From Candidatus Woesearchaeota archaeon (lineage in GTDB: Archaea; Nanobdellota; Nanobdellia; Woesearchaeales; 0-14-0-80-44-23), in assembly GCA_038874135.1 (NCBI GenBank), contig JAVZCZ010000001.1, forward strand, positions 544,001-608,000: 64,000 nt of DNA, written 5' to 3'. Under the pieces are notes generated by a model that saw nothing but the letters and a program-made list of their open reading frames with translations, was not told the DNA's origin and did not search any database. Position 1 is the first letter of the stretch, and every line of letters starts with the position of its first letter. Made by a program: the position numbers and the translations under genes. Positions 10,054 to 29,416 of the stretch are shown in pieces.

Positions 10054-10184
10054 TGCGGGGAGTAGGATTTGAACCCACGTAGGCACTAAGCCAGCAGATG
10101 GCTCACGCGGAATAGCTCATCGGCAGCTGCCTCGCCACTCAAGCAACTTGAGTCTGCCCCGTTTGGCCACTCCGGCATCCCCGC
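10054..10184 (-). tRNA. tRNA-Leu(CAA) with 47-nt intron at 37/38 (10100-10146)
   Basis: Acceptor GCGGGGA/TCCCCGC-A, anticodon arm GCAGA-CT-CAA-G[intron]A-TCTGC, long variable arm, GGTTCAAATCC; BHB CTCA/TGAG with bulges AG|T and CC|A. Confidence 0.95.
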
Positions 10185-13259: not shown

Positions 13260-14266
13260 CCTTGCTGCACTGATTTTAAACGTTGAATTTCCAATTTGGG
13301 ATCTGGATCTGGATTAACATTTAGAGCACGAAATTCAATTCTGTCAAATCCGGGATTCTTTGAAACTCTTCCCTCTAAAAGAACTTGCATTCCTAATAAT
13401 GAATTTTTCAGCGCTGAGAGCTGTCCATCATTACTTTTAATGCTGAGAACCTCGTTCTCACCAAGTTTGAGAAGTTGAAGAACCTGCTCTTTAAAGCACA
13501 CCACTCTAACCGTGCCCGTGCCGTCATCTACAAAGAAATTCAAGACAAAGCTATAGCTTGGCGTTGAGGTTGGCCCGTGCACTTCACATATAAACCCTTC
13601 AGATCCCTGTTTCAATCTTCTTCTGCACTCTGGACAGGTCTCGTAAAAGTGAAGGTCAAAGACCTGAGTTATTGTCCCTAAAATTTGAACATAATCTCCT
13701 TCTTTAAGATCTGAAATCTGCCTGCGCGGCGTTGTTGGGATATTTGTTGGCTTCTTAGCCAGCTCGGGAACTCTCTCCTCTGGCGGGTTTAGTATGAGTT
13801 TTGAGCGGGAGTTGAGGTGAAGTTCCAGCTGGCCATTTCTCTCCCTAACATATCCAGACTTTATCTTTACGATGTCATTTTCTTTAAGATTTGCTGCAAG
13901 TTCTGCCTGCTCGTTCCAGAGCACCACTCTAATAGAGCCTGTTTCGTCAGAAAGTACGAAAGAGGAGACCTTTCCTGAAGAGTTCTGGGTTGAAAACTCT
14001 GTAGGTGGAAAGACCTTTTCTACGCGCCCAACAGTTTCAACATCTCTCATTCCCGAGAGTATGTTCTTGATTTGCACTCTGCCAGCTACTGAGTCAAACA
14101 GCTTTATGTTCAGCTCATGCGCGAGTATGTATGCTGCGCCCTCCCTGCTTATCATTCCTGAGAGTAGTTTTATCTTTTCATCCATCCTTTTTAGTATTTC
14201 ATCTTCAGAAAGGCCGCTCTTCTCCTTTATTCTGGCAATCACTTCTTCCATTGGTATTTTAAGCAT
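13256..14266 (-). CDS. rpa: Replication protein A large subunit (OB folds + Zn finger)
   Basis: DETGSIRVVLW and DDGTGTVRVVCF OB motifs; CPECRR...CEVH. Confidence 0.88.
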   Translation of the reverse strand: MLKIPMEEVIARIKEKSGLSEDEILKRMDEKIKLLSGMISREGAAYILAHELNIKLFDSVAGRVQIKNILSGMRDVETVGRVEKVFPPTEFSTQNSSGKVSSFVLSDETGSIRVVLWNEQAELAANLKENDIVKIKSGYVRERNGQLELHLNSRSKLILNPPEERVPELAKKPTNIPTTPRRQISDLKEGDYVQILGTITQVFDLHFYETCPECRRRLKQGSEGFICEVHGPTSTPSYSFVLNFFVDDGTGTVRVVCFKEQVLQLLKLGENEVLSIKSNDGQLSALKNSLLGMQVLLEGRVSKNPGFDRIEFRALNVNPDPDPKLEIQRLKSVQQG

Positions 14267-14314
14267 TTTAAGTGGTGTGCTTAATGGTTCTTATAAAAAT
14301 CTTTCTGAGAAAAA

Positions 14315-14407
14315 ACGAGTTTTGCATGCGCTCCCCAGTTACTACCGTTCTTCATTGCCGAACGGCTCAGCGGGTGTTCACTCGGTCACTGCGCATTCTG
14401 CACTCGC
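14315..14407 (-). ncRNA. BHB-enclosed C/D-box-like small RNA with two K-turns
   Basis: GC-rich intergenic island with TATA-like box ~25 nt upstream and T-run at the 3' end; perfect hBHBh'; D' CTGA and C' ATGAAGA. Confidence 0.75.
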
Positions 14408-14450
14408 AAGAATTGTGGTGTGTATTTTTAATATAAAAAAATATGCCTGA

Positions 14451-14888
14451 TTAGAGAGTGCCAAGCTTCTTTTCAATTTCGGCTAACTCCCTTTCTAGCT
14501 CTTCAAGCTCTGAGGATAGTTTTTTAGACGGCTTGTTGTCTACGATTTTTGTACTGCCAGATGGTTGAGCTGCTATTTGAGTTTCCTGCTCTGTTTTCGG
14601 GATTGAACCGCCTTGAAGTTCAGGTATCATTCTGCGTGTCATCTCAACTATCTTTGAGATCTCATTTACTGTATGAATAAGCTCTTGAATTAGCTTTTCT
14701 TTTGTTTCTCTTTCCCTGGTTAGAGTGGTTTCCATTTGAAGAAGCTTTACTGCCTGCTTAGAAGTTTCAAGAATCTTTTTTCTGACCTCTGAGGGATTTT
14801 CTATTGATACAAAAAGCTCTTCTGGCTTCGTTTGCGTTGGGGGGTTCCTCTTTGTTTTTTTCTCATTCTTTTTTACCTGTTTAGGCAT
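14451..14888 (-). CDS. Hypothetical coiled-coil protein (third of a related trio)
   Basis: LFVSIEN motif then heptads; C-terminal ELEELERELAEIEKKL. Confidence 0.75.
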   Translation of the reverse strand: MPKQVKKNEKKTKRNPPTQTKPEELFVSIENPSEVRKKILETSKQAVKLLQMETTLTRERETKEKLIQELIHTVNEISKIVEMTRRMIPELQGGSIPKTEQETQIAAQPSGSTKIVDNKPSKKLSSELEELERELAEIEKKLGTL

Positions 14889-15140
14889 CTATTCCACCCC
14901 CGGCTCAAGCAGTATGTCGTCCAACTCGTTTATTCTATTTTCAATGTCTGATAAGATTGCTTGCCAGTTTTCCAGCTCCGAAGCTTCCCTTGCTTTTATG
15001 TCTTCAAGTTCTGCCAGTATTGCCTTAGCGTCTTTGAGCTTTCTCTTTATCAGCTCAAATGCGTCCAGCAAGTCCTTGTACTCTTCAATTTTTATAAATA
15101 CTGGAAGCTTTTTATCCTTCTGCGCTTGGACTGCCGGCAT
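14889..15140 (-). CDS. Hypothetical coiled-coil protein (second of trio)
   Basis: PVFIKIEEYK...ELENWQAILSDIE; upstream SD; abuts next gene. Confidence 0.8.
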   Translation of the reverse strand: MPAVQAQKDKKLPVFIKIEEYKDLLDAFELIKRKLKDAKAILAELEDIKAREASELENWQAILSDIENRINELDDILLEPGVE

Positions 15141-15150
15141 CTCCTACCAC

Positions 15151-15828
15151 CTAAAGGTTTCCGAAAAGCTGATCATCTACATATATCAGCTTTCTTTCTA
15201 TGTCTTCCAGCTTTGCGCGCCAATTCTCTAGTTCTGCATCTTCATTCTCCTTTAAAGCTCTCAGCGATTGTAGGGAAGAATTTGCACTCTTAATTATGCT
15301 TTTAACAGTTGAAAGTTCGCGCAGTATCGCCTTATACTTGTCAACCTTGAGGAATATTGGCTTTGCAGTGTCCAGCTCCCTTTTTATCTGAGGGTTAATT
15401 TCTGAAGTTGCTGGCTCAACCGGATTAGATATTTGAGATTGCTGTGATAGATAAGCTGTTTGGCTCTTGACTCCTGATGGCATTTCCTGCCTATTATCCA
15501 ATGTGCCCGTTGGAAATGAAAATGGTTGAAAGCGTCTGCCCTGATTATCTGCGCCTGGAATACTTGAAAAGTCTGGCTCTTGAGGCTCTTGAGATGGGTA
15601 GTACTTCTTGAATAGGGCATCATACTCATCCGCTGAAGATTTAGTTTCAGTTTGCTTAGGCTCTGGAAATGGAGAAGGTGTGCTTTCAAATGGCTGCGAT
15701 GCGAATGGTTGTTCTGGCGGTTCAGGAATCTGCTGAAATTGCTGTCCAGCCTGCGGCACTTGCTGAGGCGTAGGCGACTGCATAGAAGATTGTTTATTAT
15801 CCTTTTTTCCGAAGAGTGAAAAAGCCAT
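15151..15828 (-). CDS. Hypothetical protein with P/Q-rich disordered N-terminus and coiled-coil domain (first of trio)
   Basis: PIFLKVDKYK...ELENWRAKLEDIE; GGGGTG SD. Confidence 0.8.
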   Translation of the reverse strand: MAFSLFGKKDNKQSSMQSPTPQQVPQAGQQFQQIPEPPEQPFASQPFESTPSPFPEPKQTETKSSADEYDALFKKYYPSQEPQEPDFSSIPGADNQGRRFQPFSFPTGTLDNRQEMPSGVKSQTAYLSQQSQISNPVEPATSEINPQIKRELDTAKPIFLKVDKYKAILRELSTVKSIIKSANSSLQSLRALKENEDAELENWRAKLEDIERKLIYVDDQLFGNL

Positions 15829-15907: not shown

Positions 15908-17035
15908 TTATCCGAAAAACTTTCTGAGATGGGAGGTATCTTCCTCCTTTCTTTTTACCTTTTCAACTGCCTTGAAAAAGTCAGCTTGGCATATGAATGT
16001 TCTTCCATCTCTCAAAGCGAAGTAGCCGGCTTCTGTGCATAGAGCCCTCAGCTCAGCTCCTGAGAAGTTTTCAGTTCTTTTAACAATCTCTTCAAGATTA
16101 ACATCTTTAAGATTCATTTGCCTTGTATGTATTTTAAGTATTTCAAGCCTTCCTTCAGCGTCGGGATTTGGAATCTCTATCTTTCTATCAAGACGGCCAG
16201 GTCTGAGAATTGCCGGGTCCAGCAGGTCTGCCCTGTTGGTGCAACCTATAATTTTTACATTTCCAAGAGGCTTAAAACCGTCTATCTCCGCCAAAAGCTG
16301 CATGAAGGTGCGCTGCACTTCTCTCTCGCCAGAGGTTCCTATGTCAATTCTTATTGAAGCCAGAGCGTCCAGCTCATCTATGAATATTATTGACGGTGCT
16401 TTCTGCTTTGCAATTTCAAAAATTTCCCTGACCAGCTTTGCTCCTTCCCCTATGAATTTTTGGACCAATTCTGAAGAAACAACTTCTATGAAAGTAGCTT
16501 TGGTGGATGCTGCAACCGCCTTGGCCAGCAGCGTCTTTCCAGTCCCAGGAGGCCCATACAGCAATATTCCCTTTGGAGGAACTATGCCTATTTTCTGAAA
16601 TACCTCTGGCCTTTTAAGCGGCTCTTCAATAACTTCTCTTATTTCACGAATCTGCTCCCGAAGGCCGCCTATGTCGCTCCAGCTTACCTTTGGCTTTTCA
16701 ACTATTATGAAGTTTTCAACGCTGAACTCGCGAGAGGCTGGGATCTTGCGTACTATTGCCAGATTTTTCTGGTCAACAAGGACAGTATCTCCCGGCTCTG
16801 CAGATATGCTCTGCGGGCGTGAAACATAAAACATGCTACCGTTGGAAAGCTTAATTATAGCCCCATCATCAATTATGTTCTTAACTTCTGCAACAAGAAG
16901 AGGCTCTTTTCTGTAGGATTCAAGTTCTCGCTTCATAAGTTCAACTGTCTCTTTTAAAAGCATGTTTTCTTCTCTCACTCGCGATATTTCATCTACACTT
17001 ATTTTAGATTCATGCTCCTGCTGTTTTGCCTTCAT
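15908..17035 (-). CDS. pan: Proteasome-activating nucleotidase (AAA+)
   Basis: N-terminal coiled coil and OB fold, GPPGTGKT, KFIGEG, IFIDELD, RPGRLDR, C-terminal FFG; GTG 17044 is an alternative start. Confidence 0.93.
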   Translation of the reverse strand: MKAKQQEHESKISVDEISRVREENMLLKETVELMKRELESYRKEPLLVAEVKNIIDDGAIIKLSNGSMFYVSRPQSISAEPGDTVLVDQKNLAIVRKIPASREFSVENFIIVEKPKVSWSDIGGLREQIREIREVIEEPLKRPEVFQKIGIVPPKGILLYGPPGTGKTLLAKAVAASTKATFIEVVSSELVQKFIGEGAKLVREIFEIAKQKAPSIIFIDELDALASIRIDIGTSGEREVQRTFMQLLAEIDGFKPLGNVKIIGCTNRADLLDPAILRPGRLDRKIEIPNPDAEGRLEILKIHTRQMNLKDVNLEEIVKRTENFSGAELRALCTEAGYFALRDGRTFICQADFFKAVEKVKRKEEDTSHLRKFFG

Positions 17036-17040
17036 GGATT

Positions 17041-18390
17041 TCACTCTGGTCTGGTTATCCCAACTTGTCTTATTAATACTGGTGGAGTTTCTACTGGAGT
17101 TTCAACCTCCCAGCCAATTATCTTTTTGGAATTTTTTCCTATGCTTGAAACATTCTTAAGTATGTTTGGCATAGTATCTGAGATTCTTATTCTGCGAGCT
17201 TGTCCGATAATCCTGCCATTCTTAATATAAAACACTTGGTCTCTGGGAAGTGTTGAAAACTCTCCAGTCCGATAATTCTGAAACCTCGTATACCATAGAT
17301 TGGTGACTATTAGTCCTTTTTTTATTGAAGATATCATGTTGTCAATTTCTGATTTTCCTGGTTTTAATACTATGTTGAAAGGTGTCGGAATTATTAATCC
17401 AGCGTTTCCTGTACTCTCAATCCCATATCTTCTGGCTGTGGAAGTGTTATGTAGGTATGTCTTCAACACTCCATTTTCTATTAGTGCCTTCCTTTTAGCT
17501 GGAACTCCTTCATCATCAAAGAGCACTGAGCCTATACCGCCTTCCTGCGTAGGGTCATCCATAAGGGTAAAATCGCGTGAGGAAACCTGCTTTTCAAGCT
17601 TATTCTCCAGGAATGAGGAACCTGCTTCTACTTCAAATATTGAACACGAATATGCAGTCAGCTCAAGAAGCGATGCGAAGGGCAGTGGATAGAAAAGCAC
17701 ATCATACCTTCCAGGCTTTATCTTCACATCTGGAAAAATCTCGTTTGCAAGTTCTGCTGATTCCGAAGCACACTGCTCAGCATTAAATCCTTTGAGATTT
17801 CTTGAAACTGCCACTGAGTGGGCTGAATGCTCCTTATCAACTATGGCGCGAGTAGAAAGGTATATCTGAGTTGATTTGAATTCGCCTTCTACCCTGCTTG
17901 AAGTTATTATATATTCATATGATGAACTAGCTTCTAAATTTCCTGCTACTCTGGAGACCTTTCCCCTAGATGCTTCAGATACTGCAGATTCTGCATAATC
18001 TACTATTCCCTCTCCAAGATTTTCTACCTGCCTATCATAAAGTGATGGATCCTTCCTATATTTAAAAGGACCTTGTGCAATTCCCATGTAGTTTGGATTT
18101 GGCTTGAGCTTCCTGGCGAATCTGGCTATATCCTCGGCAGTCCGCCTTACTGATTTTTTTTCAATATCTCTTATTGATGTAGCAACTATCCTCTTTCCAA
18201 ATGATGCAAACACTGAAAGGCTAGATGGCTGATATGTCATCTGGTTGTTTATTCTGCTGTTAGAAAATTTAACCTGTGACTCCTCCTCAAACATAAAAGA
18301 GACTATAGCATCCTCTGCCCCGAGTTTAGTTATTCTCCTCAAAAGCTCCTGCGCTGCTCCTATCCCATTATCAATAATCTTCTCATTCAT
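17041..18390 (-). CDS. pmbA: TldD/PmbA family protein (PmbA/TldE-like, no HExxxH)
   Basis: FDDEGVP, STGNAG, VTNLWYTRFQN. Confidence 0.85.
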   Translation of the reverse strand: MNEKIIDNGIGAAQELLRRITKLGAEDAIVSFMFEEESQVKFSNSRINNQMTYQPSSLSVFASFGKRIVATSIRDIEKKSVRRTAEDIARFARKLKPNPNYMGIAQGPFKYRKDPSLYDRQVENLGEGIVDYAESAVSEASRGKVSRVAGNLEASSSYEYIITSSRVEGEFKSTQIYLSTRAIVDKEHSAHSVAVSRNLKGFNAEQCASESAELANEIFPDVKIKPGRYDVLFYPLPFASLLELTAYSCSIFEVEAGSSFLENKLEKQVSSRDFTLMDDPTQEGGIGSVLFDDEGVPAKRKALIENGVLKTYLHNTSTARRYGIESTGNAGLIIPTPFNIVLKPGKSEIDNMISSIKKGLIVTNLWYTRFQNYRTGEFSTLPRDQVFYIKNGRIIGQARRIRISDTMPNILKNVSSIGKNSKKIIGWEVETPVETPPVLIRQVGITRPE

Positions 18391-22584: not shown

Positions 22585-22709
22585 GCCGAGGTCGCATAGC
22601 CTGGTATTGCGAAGGATTGCTAATCCTTTGCCCGAAAGGGTCCAAGGGTTCAAAGCACTTTCATAAATGAGGCTTTTGCCTTATGTGTGTGAAAGTCCCT
22701 TCCTCGGCG
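22585..22709 (+). tRNA. tRNA-Ser(GCT) with 41-nt non-canonical intron at 59/60 (22655-22695)
   Basis: Acceptor GCCGAGG/CCTCGGC-G, AAGGA-TT-GCT-AA-TCCTT, long variable arm; T-arm AAGGG-TTCAAA[intron]T-CCCTT with perfect BHB. Confidence 0.93.
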
Positions 22710-28815: not shown

Positions 28816-28849
28816 ACCTTTTTAAACTTGGTGAGAAATATAGGTGTTT

Positions 28850-29416
28850 ATGAGCAGAAAAAATATTTCAGAACAGACTGAGAAGCAAGGCAGGAAAATA
28901 AAGGTTGTTTATGCTAAAGAACAGATAATTAGTGAAAATTCTGATTATGCTAGAGAGCTCTGCAATTCGGGAAGCTACGGAGTACTTCTTGAGGATGGCA
29001 GGGTGCAATTCTCTGCGTTTGAGACGCTGTACCTTATGGAAAAAGGGAAGGTTGAGCTTATAGATTTTAGGGGTAGAACGCTTTCTAAAGAGGAGCTCAT
29101 AAAGAAAGCTAGCAGGAGTGATAAAGAGTTCCTGGCAAGATATGCCATCTTTAAGGATTTAAGAACTAGGGGTTATGTGGTTAAGACAGCTTTAAAGTTC
29201 GGAGCTGACTTCAGAGTCTATGACAGGGGTGTTAAGCCTGGAGAGGACCATGCTAAATGGATAGTGTACGCTGTGCACGAATCTGGAGGACTCACCTGGC
29301 ACGACTTCGCAGCTAAGAATAGAGTTGCTCACTCAACCAAGAAAAAGCTTCTCATCGGAATATTAGATGACGAGGGCGACATAACATATTACGAGATAAG
29401 ATGGATAAGGCCTTAG
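28850..29416 (+). CDS. endA: tRNA-intron lyase (splicing endonuclease, single catalytic unit)
   Basis: DLRTRGYVVKTALKFGADFRVY, H in GEDHA, RVAHSTKKK. Confidence 0.93.
   Translation: MSRKNISEQTEKQGRKIKVVYAKEQIISENSDYARELCNSGSYGVLLEDGRVQFSAFETLYLMEKGKVELIDFRGRTLSKEELIKKASRSDKEFLARYAIFKDLRTRGYVVKTALKFGADFRVYDRGVKPGEDHAKWIVYAVHESGGLTWHDFAAKNRVAHSTKKKLLIGILDDEGDITYYEIRWIRP

What the first reader, a model, noticed from the sequence alone, without database searches (positions are those of the whole stretch)
14315..14407. Free-standing 'intron without a tRNA': BHB-enclosed dual K-turn C/D-like RNA predicted to be spliced into a 76-nt circle
Seen: the minus strand reads GCGAG-UGCA-GAA-UGCGC ... GCGCA-UGCA-AAA-CUCGU. 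This is a perfect helix/3-nt bulge/4-bp helix/3-nt bulge/helix, the substrate of the archaeal splicing endonuclease encoded at 28850-29416. Inside are two canonical K-turns: GCGC-AGU-GA-CC / GG-GA-GCGC (C/D-like) and CUGA-GCC-GUUC-GGC-AAU-GA-AG (D'/C'). They are joined by 12- and 13-nt guide-length spacers. The unit has its own TATA-like box (~14429-14437) and a 3' T-run, and rpa downstream has a separate TATA. Known: BHB cleavage plus ligation circularises tRNA introns (including the C/D-containing tRNA-Trp intron) and rRNA precursors. Inference: cuts at 14397/14396 and 14321/14320 release a 76-nt circular guide RNA and leave a 17-nt vestigial exon hairpin. That would be a dedicated splicing route to circular sRNAs.
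Basis: partly seen in the sequence, partly recalled or inferred. Interest (0 to 1): 0.9.

Follow-up and report, generated by a model that had tools for sequence, protein, structure and literature searches.

The report
Ribosome guide RNA inside splice-site stem
This is a small guide RNA, kept by most Woesearchaeota, that aims two sugar methylations at the catalytic centre of the large ribosomal RNA; in about a fifth of lineages, this one included, it is wrapped in a conserved copy of the tRNA-intron cut signal, so the tRNA-splicing enzymes probably cut it out and close it into a ring.

Summary
The RNA is a box C/D sRNA found in about 84 of 101 genomes of the order (Woesearchaeota by record names), one copy each, mostly near a pan-like gene. 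Its D' guide points by the N+5 rule at 23S U2552 (A-loop). Its D guide points at U2438, and guide and target change together in another order. Genomes with the U2552 enzyme RlmE mostly lack it (6/7 versus 11/94). Most homologues have a plain terminal stem. However, 25 of 133 carry a strict 3-4-3 bulge-helix-bulge (shuffle mean 0.34) with freely covarying helices, purine 3' bulges and a TATA box about 9 nt further upstream, scattered over the species tree. EndA, RtcB, fibrillarin, Nop5 and L7Ae are present. Rnl3, the known sRNA circulariser, was found in none of 101 genomes. Splicing and circularity are inferred, not shown; no RNA run was listed. The BHB is an optional wrapper on an ordinary guide, not a general route. 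This scan noted the same architecture before in Asgard and vent archaea, and BHB-linked sRNAs were proposed computationally in 2015. New variant of a known kind.

The parts
14429..14437 (-). TATA-like box; predicted start at or just before the first base of the outer helix (about 14407-14411)
   Evidence: Sequence. In homologues the TATA sits a median 45 nt before the K-turn with a BHB and 36 nt without. Start site inferred.
14403..14407 (-). BHB outer helix, 5' arm
   Evidence: Pairs with 14315-14319; compensatory changes in the two family relatives and across the order
14399..14402 (-). BHB central 4-bp helix, 5' arm
   Evidence: 18 central-helix sequence pairs among 39 homologues; 4 bp fits 25 of 27 with 3/3 bulges
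14396..14398 (-). 5' 3-nt bulge; predicted EndA cut between 14397 and 14396
   Evidence: Geometry from sequence; a 3-nt offset in 39 of 133 homologues versus 0-8 for other offsets
14391..14395 (-). Inner helix = C-stem of the terminal K-turn, 5' arm
   Evidence: 94% of cells paired, all 5 pairs with two-sided changes
14383..14390 (-). Terminal K-turn 5' strand (degenerate box C: 3-nt bulge, GA, CC)
   Evidence: G and A invariant in 65 homologues; many read the canonical box C
14371..14382 (-). D' guide, 10-nt antisense to the 23S A-loop; A14375 is the fifth base and pairs with U2552 (G000 128336)
   Evidence: Best antisense match in the rRNA operon; 9-nt target core present in all 49 genomes with a 23S match
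14367..14370 (-). Box D' (CUGA)
   Evidence: Canonical; last three bases invariant in the pattern-selected set
14357..14366 (-). Internal 3-bp hairpin between D' and C'
   Evidence: Variable length, covarying
14349..14355 (-). Box C' (one mismatch to consensus)
14336..14348 (-). D guide: 7 bp + bulged U14344 + 3 bp antisense to 23S 2435-2444; A14340 is the fifth base and pairs with U2438 (G000 128222)
   Evidence: some homologues lack the bulged base and pair 9-10 bp perfectly; guide and target both change at 2437 in family f138 of another order
14332..14335 (-). Degenerate box D (GGGA) pairing with the CC of box C
   Evidence: The stem-II pair covaries G-C / U-A / C-G; canonical CUGA in 41 of 133 homologues
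14327..14331 (-). Inner helix, 3' arm
14323..14326 (-). BHB central helix, 3' arm
14320..14322 (-). 3' 3-nt bulge (AAA); predicted cut between 14321 and 14320
   Evidence: AAA or AGA in 34 of 39 homologues
14315..14319 (-). BHB outer helix, 3' arm
14310..14315 (-). T6 run, probable terminator
   Evidence: Sequence; inferred
28844..29416 (+). tRNA splicing endonuclease EndA, single 190-aa subunit, only copy in the genome; Tyr/His/Lys triad visible; alpha4 type inferred from size
15908..17044 (-). pan (proteasome ATPase), conserved neighbour that marks the locus
   Evidence: A tblastn hit to this protein in 104 of 133 homologous loci, 32/39 with BHB and 72/94 without; some hits may be other AAA ATPases

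Best explanation
A stand-alone dual-guide box C/D sRNA gene. It is transcribed from its own promoter as a ~95-100-nt precursor whose leader and trailer fold into a canonical BHB. EndA cuts both bulges and RtcB joins the ends of the 76-nt insert, giving a circular sRNA; the 17-nt exon hairpin is waste. L7Ae binds both K-turns, and Nop5 and fibrillarin assemble. The RNP 2'-O-methylates 23S U2552 in the A-loop (replacing RlmE) and probably U2438, and may also help fold the peptidyl-transferase region. Shown here: sequence, conservation, covariation, guide complementarity, gene content. Inferred: transcription, cleavage, ligation, methylation. My odds by step: C/D guide for U2552 about 0.92; U2438 pairing real about 0.85; EndA cleavage in vivo about 0.8; stable circle about 0.68.
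For: Family: 149/401 genomes by strict pattern, one copy each, reversed control 0; 87/101 by covariance model, 3 of them non-orthologous hits. Targets; guide-target compensatory change in 3/3 f138 genomes. RlmE-like gene in 7/101 relatives, 6 lacking the U2552 guide versus 11/94 others, Fisher p 6e-5, one genome per family and not corrected for phylogeny; G000's weak FtsJ hits are NOL1/NOP2 methylases. BHB: strict in 25/133, central helix plus bulges in 39/133; flank-shuffle null mean 0.34 (max 3) and 4.45 (max 9); cross-pairing between homologues works in only 87/600; every helix column has 3-5 pair types. RNAalifold on 12 BHB-selected rows recovers two 3-nt bulges with 14/21 pairs covarying. 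TATA moved out by about 9 nt (45 vs 36, p 2e-9). Fibrillarin, Nop5, L7Ae, RtcB and EndA present. Rnl3 (TIGR01209) in 0/101; it is the ligase shown to circularise C/D sRNAs in Thermococcus (PMC9014305). Circularly permuted genomic copies exist in two other Woesearchaeota types. EndA cuts BHBs outside tRNA and the products circularise (PMC7714728, PMC4731332).
Against: No RNA evidence of any kind. About 80% of orthologues do without the BHB (16/86 have it in a one-per-family sample), so splicing is not needed for function. In G000 the BHB is 1.7 kcal/mol above an internal-loop alternative with central-pair probability about 0.1; across homologues the gap is 0-2.6, one 6.6. Registers are ambiguous: 3-bp and 5-bp centres fit 24 and 18 of the same set, and RNAalifold's consensus has a 3-bp centre. 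The D guide has a bulge and a non-consensus box D, and I found no paper reporting Um2438. Permuted genes can also arise by tandem duplication.
Confidence: 0.68

Rival explanations
1. EndA uses the BHB only to trim both ends; the mature guide stays linear (5'-OH, cyclic phosphate) or is a linear/circular mixture.
For: The geometry selects for cleavage, not necessarily ligation. Linear and circular C/D sRNAs co-exist in thermophiles (PMC7994747). Plain orthologues must work as linear RNAs because Rnl3 was not found.
Against: RtcB is present. Excised BHB inserts are generally found as circles in archaea (PMC7714728, PMC12558985). The inner helix holds the two ends together.
Confidence: 0.14
2. 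The extension is only a longer, imperfect terminal stem that protects the ends; EndA never cuts it.
For: The internal-loop fold is slightly more stable in G000; 42 chance BHBs occur in the genome.
Against: The 3-nt offset is specific (39 versus 0-8 for other offsets). With outer helix >=4 bp the 3/3 cell has 21 cases and any other cell at most 3. The 3' bulge is AAA/AGA in 34/39. A protective stem would not need offset pairing kept through two-sided changes.
Confidence: 0.1
3. The RNP is mainly a folding chaperone that bridges H74 (2435-2444) and H92 (2550-2558) of 23S rRNA; one or both guides do not methylate.
For: Short 7-10 bp duplexes, bulged D guide, degenerate C/D boxes. The same D guide recurs in a paralogue. 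A chaperone role is proposed for dual guides (PMC4644070).
Against: Fixed N+5 spacing for both guides across 133 homologues. Near mutual exclusion with RlmE. U2552 is a known guided site in five of seven archaea. This rival does not exclude splicing.
Confidence: 0.06
4. Chance structure in an intergenic gap or part of the rpa leader.
For: Folding z -1.2; no Rfam hit.
Against: Order-wide conservation and covariation; rpa is adjacent in only 3 of 133 loci.
Confidence: 0.02

Closest known systems
[quoted passage not shown]
   Same: C/D guide released by EndA at a BHB and circularised by RtcB
   Different: There the BHB belongs to a functional tRNA and the guide targets that tRNA. Here there is no tRNA body, the exon is 17 nt, the gene has its own promoter and the targets are in 23S rRNA.
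Free-standing circular C/D sRNAs of Thermococcales and other thermophiles (PMC9014305, PMC7994747)
   Same: Stand-alone C/D guides that end up circular
   Different: [quoted passage not shown] Here a canonical BHB predicts one exact junction, and Rnl3 was not found in the order sample.
Permuted circular SRP RNA of Thermoproteus (PMC4731332) and the BHB circle in the 5' UTR of Haloferax HVO_1309 (PMC7714728)
   Same: Leader and trailer form a BHB outside tRNA and the splicing machinery makes a circle
   Different: Different RNA classes. SRP circularisation is obligatory because the gene is permuted; here the gene is colinear and the BHB optional.
Archaeal C/D sRNAs guiding Um2552 (PMC4644070) and the RlmE/RrmJ enzyme
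   Same: Same A-loop target nucleotide
   Different: No Rfam family matches this RNA; pairing with a U2438 guide and the BHB wrapper were not found described.
Berkemer et al. [quoted passage not shown] 1:e18)
   Same: From memory: proposed computationally that many archaeal C/D sRNAs lie in BHB-like elements. Only the citation was verified (reference list); the paper is not held.
   Different: As I recall, relaxed motifs in a few model genomes without comparative support; later Rnl3 genetics pointed elsewhere. Here strict motifs with covariation in one orthologous family.

Membership tests
Archaeal box C/D sRNA | Internal D'/C' motif close to consensus forming a K-turn or K-loop | tested here: met
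   Canonical D', C' with one mismatch; conserved and covarying
Archaeal box C/D sRNA | Terminal boxes C and D at consensus sequence | tested here: not met
   In this copy both boxes deviate but keep tandem G-A and a 2-bp stem. Orthologues span all grades, 41/133 with canonical D, so the family is canonical and this copy degenerate.
Archaeal box C/D sRNA | Terminal K-turn geometry (stem, 3-nt bulge, tandem G-A) | tested here: met
Archaeal box C/D sRNA | Two ~12-nt guides antisense to rRNA/tRNA with a Watson-Crick pair at N+5 | tested here: met
   D': 10 bp, U2552. D: 7+3 bp with a bulge, U2438; guide-target covariation
Archaeal box C/D sRNA | L7Ae, Nop5 and fibrillarin encoded | tested here: met
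Archaeal box C/D sRNA | Expression, RNP assembly and methylation of the target | not testable with these tools
   No RNA run listed; needs bench work
BHB (EndA/RtcB) intron | Canonical helix, 3-nt bulge, 4-bp helix, 3-nt bulge, helix in the right polarity | tested here: met
BHB (EndA/RtcB) intron | EndA and RtcB encoded | tested here: met
BHB (EndA/RtcB) intron | Cleavage at both bulges and circular product | not testable with these tools
   No reads available
tRNA intron-encoded C/D sRNA | Flanking exons form a tRNA | tested here: not met
   ARAGORN and Rfam find no tRNA here; flanks are promoter and T-run in all homologues inspected
Rnl3-circularised C/D sRNA | Rnl3 (Pab1020 family) ligase in the genome | tested here: not met
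   TIGR01209 0/101; the PF09414 hit is a 597-aa protein with a DNA-ligase-like size and motif
Archaeal H/ACA sRNA | ACA box after the basal stem and a bipartite pocket flanking one uridine | tested here: not met
   No ACA after the stem in this copy; the two guides hit sites about 110 nt apart

The most novel reading that the evidence does not exclude
Archaea have a third, previously undemonstrated route to circular C/D sRNAs: host-less introns, in which a disposable leader and trailer mimic a tRNA splice site so that EndA/RtcB mature and close the guide at one exact junction. In Woesearchaeota, which appear to lack Rnl3, this wrapper is switched on and off many times on the guide for the A-loop methylation. 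Covalent closure may relax selection on the terminal K-turn (second G of box D lost in 18/38 BHB copies and 0/95 plain ones) and seed permuted gene copies.
Probability: 0.55. Interest if true: 0.72.

Novelty: new variant of a known kind. Interest (0 to 1): 0.6.

Why it matters
How archaeal C/D sRNAs get their ends, and why some are circular, is an open question; a 2021 review says their termini usually lack canonical BHBs and the route is unclear (PMC7994747). This family is a natural experiment: the same guide, at the same locus, with and without a splice-site wrapper in many lineages, with an exact predicted junction and a small enzyme set that can be rebuilt in vitro. It also identifies the likely source of the near-universal A-loop methylation Um2552 in a large uncultured group that mostly lacks RlmE, and predicts a little-known site, Um2438. 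It adds a substrate class to the tRNA splicing endonuclease and parallels the intron-encoded snoRNAs of non-coding host genes in eukaryotes.

Tried and rejected
Rfam at gathering and E-value thresholds: no meaningful match. The look-up of sequencing runs: no RNA holder listed; no evidence either way, and read laying was not usable. A family-specific metagenome pattern found nothing. A junction-spanning pattern in metagenome and genome contigs found no spliced junction; the archaeal hits are genomic permuted genes with promoter and downstream ORF, present in DNA assemblies. tRNA targets for either guide: nothing better than 7-8 bp with wobbles. The bacterial promoter/terminator scan does not apply. 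Other BHB-wrapped sRNAs: none in G000 by my scan and none among 11 second hits or 5 clear hits in other orders. The ORF at 13872-14450 (+) is the antisense shadow of rpa and was set aside. The central helix plus next base often reads like a GNA anticodon loop, hinting at a tRNA relic, but position 32 would be G and no tRNA arms remain; unresolved. The link between BHB and loss of the box D G is absolute in counts but not significant over 6 independent pairs (median p 0.25). The careful EF-2 tree did not finish; quick trees were used. Berkemer 2015 and Starostina 2004 could not be read. G001 (same genus, 93% complete, 80 contigs) has no hit, perhaps an assembly gap.

Full report
Observation. 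It has a 5-bp outer helix, a 4-bp central helix, two 3-nt bulges in the polarity of a tRNA intron, and a 5-bp inner helix that is also the C-stem of a K-turn. Inside are a D'/C' K-turn with a short hairpin and two spacers. Cuts after the second base of each bulge would release 14396-14321 (76 nt) and leave 17 nt of exon. No tRNA or Rfam family covers it. Taken alone the motif proves little: the 0.91-Mb genome holds 42 BHBs of the same strictness, the fold has z = -1.2, and the nearest-neighbour model prefers an internal loop by 1.7 kcal/mol. The case rests on comparison.

What the RNA is. A DNA search of 100 relatives hit the core in about 35 genomes. A strict two-guide pattern matched 149 of 401 genomes of the order, once each, with no match for the reversed control. 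The named archaeal records are mostly Woesearchaeota or Nanoarchaeota. A covariance model of the core found 87 of 101 relatives; three of these hits are a paralogue or another sRNA. The family also occurs in two families of other orders in the class. The C-stem and the short stem under the tandem G-A pairs covary freely, and many homologues carry textbook C and D boxes. It is therefore a box C/D sRNA whose terminal boxes are degenerate in this copy. A pan-like gene lies in 104 of 133 homologous loci, with or without BHB, so these are orthologues at one locus.

Targets. The D' guide is the best antisense match to the genome's own rRNA operon: 10 bp against the 23S A-loop, with the fifth base before box D' pairing with U2552 (E. 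coli numbering counted from my own knowledge of the E. coli sequence). The 9-nt target core is identical in all 49 genomes where the 23S segment matched. U2552 is a predicted guided site in five of seven archaea studied by RNA-seq (PMC4644070). G000 has no RlmE; its weak FtsJ hits are m5C methylases. Among 101 relatives seven encode an RlmE-like protein; six of these lack the U2552 guide, against 11 of the other 94 (Fisher p = 6e-5, one genome per family, no phylogenetic correction). The D guide pairs with 23S 2435-2444 as 7 bp, one bulged base and 3 bp; several lineages lack the bulged base and pair perfectly. N+5 gives U2438. In family f138 of another order the guide has a G where Woesearchaeota have A, and the 23S has the matching C at 2437 in all three genomes with an assembled target. 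I found no paper reporting Um2438, so methylation there is less certain than pairing. Fibrillarin and Nop5 are adjacent genes and L7Ae is present.

The BHB is under selection, but optional. Of 133 distinct homologues, 25 have a strict 3-4-3 BHB with an outer helix of at least 3 bp, and 39 have the central helix at a 3-nt offset. Shuffling the distal flanks gives means of 0.34 and 4.45, maxima 3 and 9. Other offsets give 0-8 cases. With an outer helix of at least 4 bp, the 3/3 bulge cell holds 21 cases and no other cell more than 3. A 4-bp centre fits 25 of the 27 homologues with 3/3 bulges; 3 bp fits 24 and 5 bp fits 18, because repeats blur the register. The central helix occurs as 18 sequence pairs, arms from different homologues pair in only 87 of 600 swaps, and the 3' bulge is AAA or AGA in 34 of 39. 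Both relatives from the same family keep the BHB with changed, compensated helices. RNAalifold on 12 BHB-selected rows recovers both bulges, with 14 of 21 pairs covarying and a 3-bp consensus centre because rows of two registers are mixed. The TATA box sits a median 45 nt before the K-turn in BHB copies and 36 nt in plain ones (p = 2e-9), as expected if the precursor includes the wrapper. In a one-genome-per-family sample 16 of 86 have it. On an EF-2 tree of 29 BHB and 29 plain genomes the state changes 10-11 times, at least 5 forced by well-supported branches, and a single BHB clade is rejected (AU p = 6.5e-7). Whether this is ancestral presence with many losses or repeated gain is unresolved: shared central sequences in distant clades favour the first, while five clear hits from other orders have plain stems. 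The second G of box D is replaced in 18 of 38 BHB copies and none of 95 plain ones, which would fit closure relaxing the terminal K-turn, but six independent pairs cannot make this significant.

Mechanism. The genome has one 190-aa EndA and an RtcB. EndA is known to cut BHBs outside tRNA, and the inserts are recovered as circles: a Haloferax 5' UTR, rRNA precursors, Thermoproteus SRP RNA (PMC7714728, PMC4731332). The ligase shown to circularise free C/D sRNAs, Rnl3 (PMC9014305), was found in none of 101 genomes. So I infer a ~95-100-nt precursor from the TATA box to the T-run, cleavage at both bulges, ligation to a 76-nt circle in which a 5-7-nt loop caps the terminal K-turn stem, assembly with L7Ae, Nop5 and fibrillarin, and methylation of U2552 and probably U2438. 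Circularly permuted genomic copies of this same sRNA in two other Woesearchaeota types fit a circular intermediate, as was hypothesised for a Pyrobaculum family (PMC6009581), but tandem duplication explains them too. No step at RNA level is shown; no RNA run was listed, which is no evidence either way. Rivals are end-trimming without ligation (0.14), a merely protective stem (0.10), a chaperone-only RNP (0.06) and chance (0.02).

Comparison and novelty. It works like the C/D sRNA in the tRNA-Trp intron but is not a tRNA intron: no tRNA flanks it. It is not an Rnl3-type circle. [quoted passage not shown] Berkemer et al. 2015 did, by my memory, propose BHB association for many archaeal C/D sRNAs computationally; I could confirm only the citation. 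This scan's earlier notes report the same architecture in Asgard archaea and a vent archaeon (e1-5459248, e1-5303545); I did not test them and do not count them as support. All parts are known and the combination is a new variant.

Verdict. Observation confirmed; interpretation partly supported and sharpened. A real, order-wide guide RNA for the peptidyl-transferase centre, with a selected, optional splice-site wrapper that most likely yields a circle. Interest 0.6.

Noticed in passing
L408-L414 (e.g. L413:40-125, record named Candidatus Woesearchaeota AMR_MDS_1807; L414): Circularly permuted genomic version of the same sRNA in two sequence types: the U2438 guide comes first, the old terminal C/D motif is internal, and the old internal hairpin forms the terminal stem. 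Similar permutations were ascribed to circle re-insertion in Pyrobaculum (PMC6009581).
   Followed up: partly
G000:C1:99892-99956 (-), L194; paralogues L367, L371, L376, L379-L384, L398: Second C/D sRNA family with canonical boxes and a plain stem. Its D' guide is antisense to 23S 2443-2452, N+5 at G2446 (my reading). In many relatives it carries the same U2438 D guide as the main family; in G000 it has a different D guide.
   Followed up: partly
window 10054-10184 (-); G000 237803-237926 (-) and 869767-869884 (+): Introns of tRNA-Leu(CAA), the tRNA called Ser(cga) by ARAGORN (its sequence looks like tRNA-Met CAU) and tRNA-Trp each hold a single K-turn module; the Trp intron has a short guide antisense to its own anticodon arm.
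   Followed up: no
window 22585-22709 (+): Rfam tRNA hit of 125 nt missed by ARAGORN; the insert appears to lie in the T-loop.
   Followed up: no
window 14451-15828 (-): Three genes without a Pfam family over the cut-off between pan and the sRNA; next to the sRNA only in the three family-f1 genomes.
   Followed up: no
genomes G005, G016, G043, G049, G087, G090, G099; family f44: RlmE-like genes occur in 7/101 relatives. Family f44 has almost no hit to the sRNA model (2/16, both weak); how it methylates U2552, if at all, was not checked.
   Followed up: partly
L364, L366, L370, L372, L374, L392-L394, L396: Several orthologues have lost the D'/C' boxes yet keep both guide sequences and the terminal K-turn, some with a BHB: single-K-turn versions of the guide.
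   Followed up: no
records L042-L161: Many records labelled 'uncultured Methanosarcinales archaeon' carry this sRNA and match contigs of genomes placed in the window's order (e.g. L063 = G071), so the labels look wrong.
   Followed up: partly
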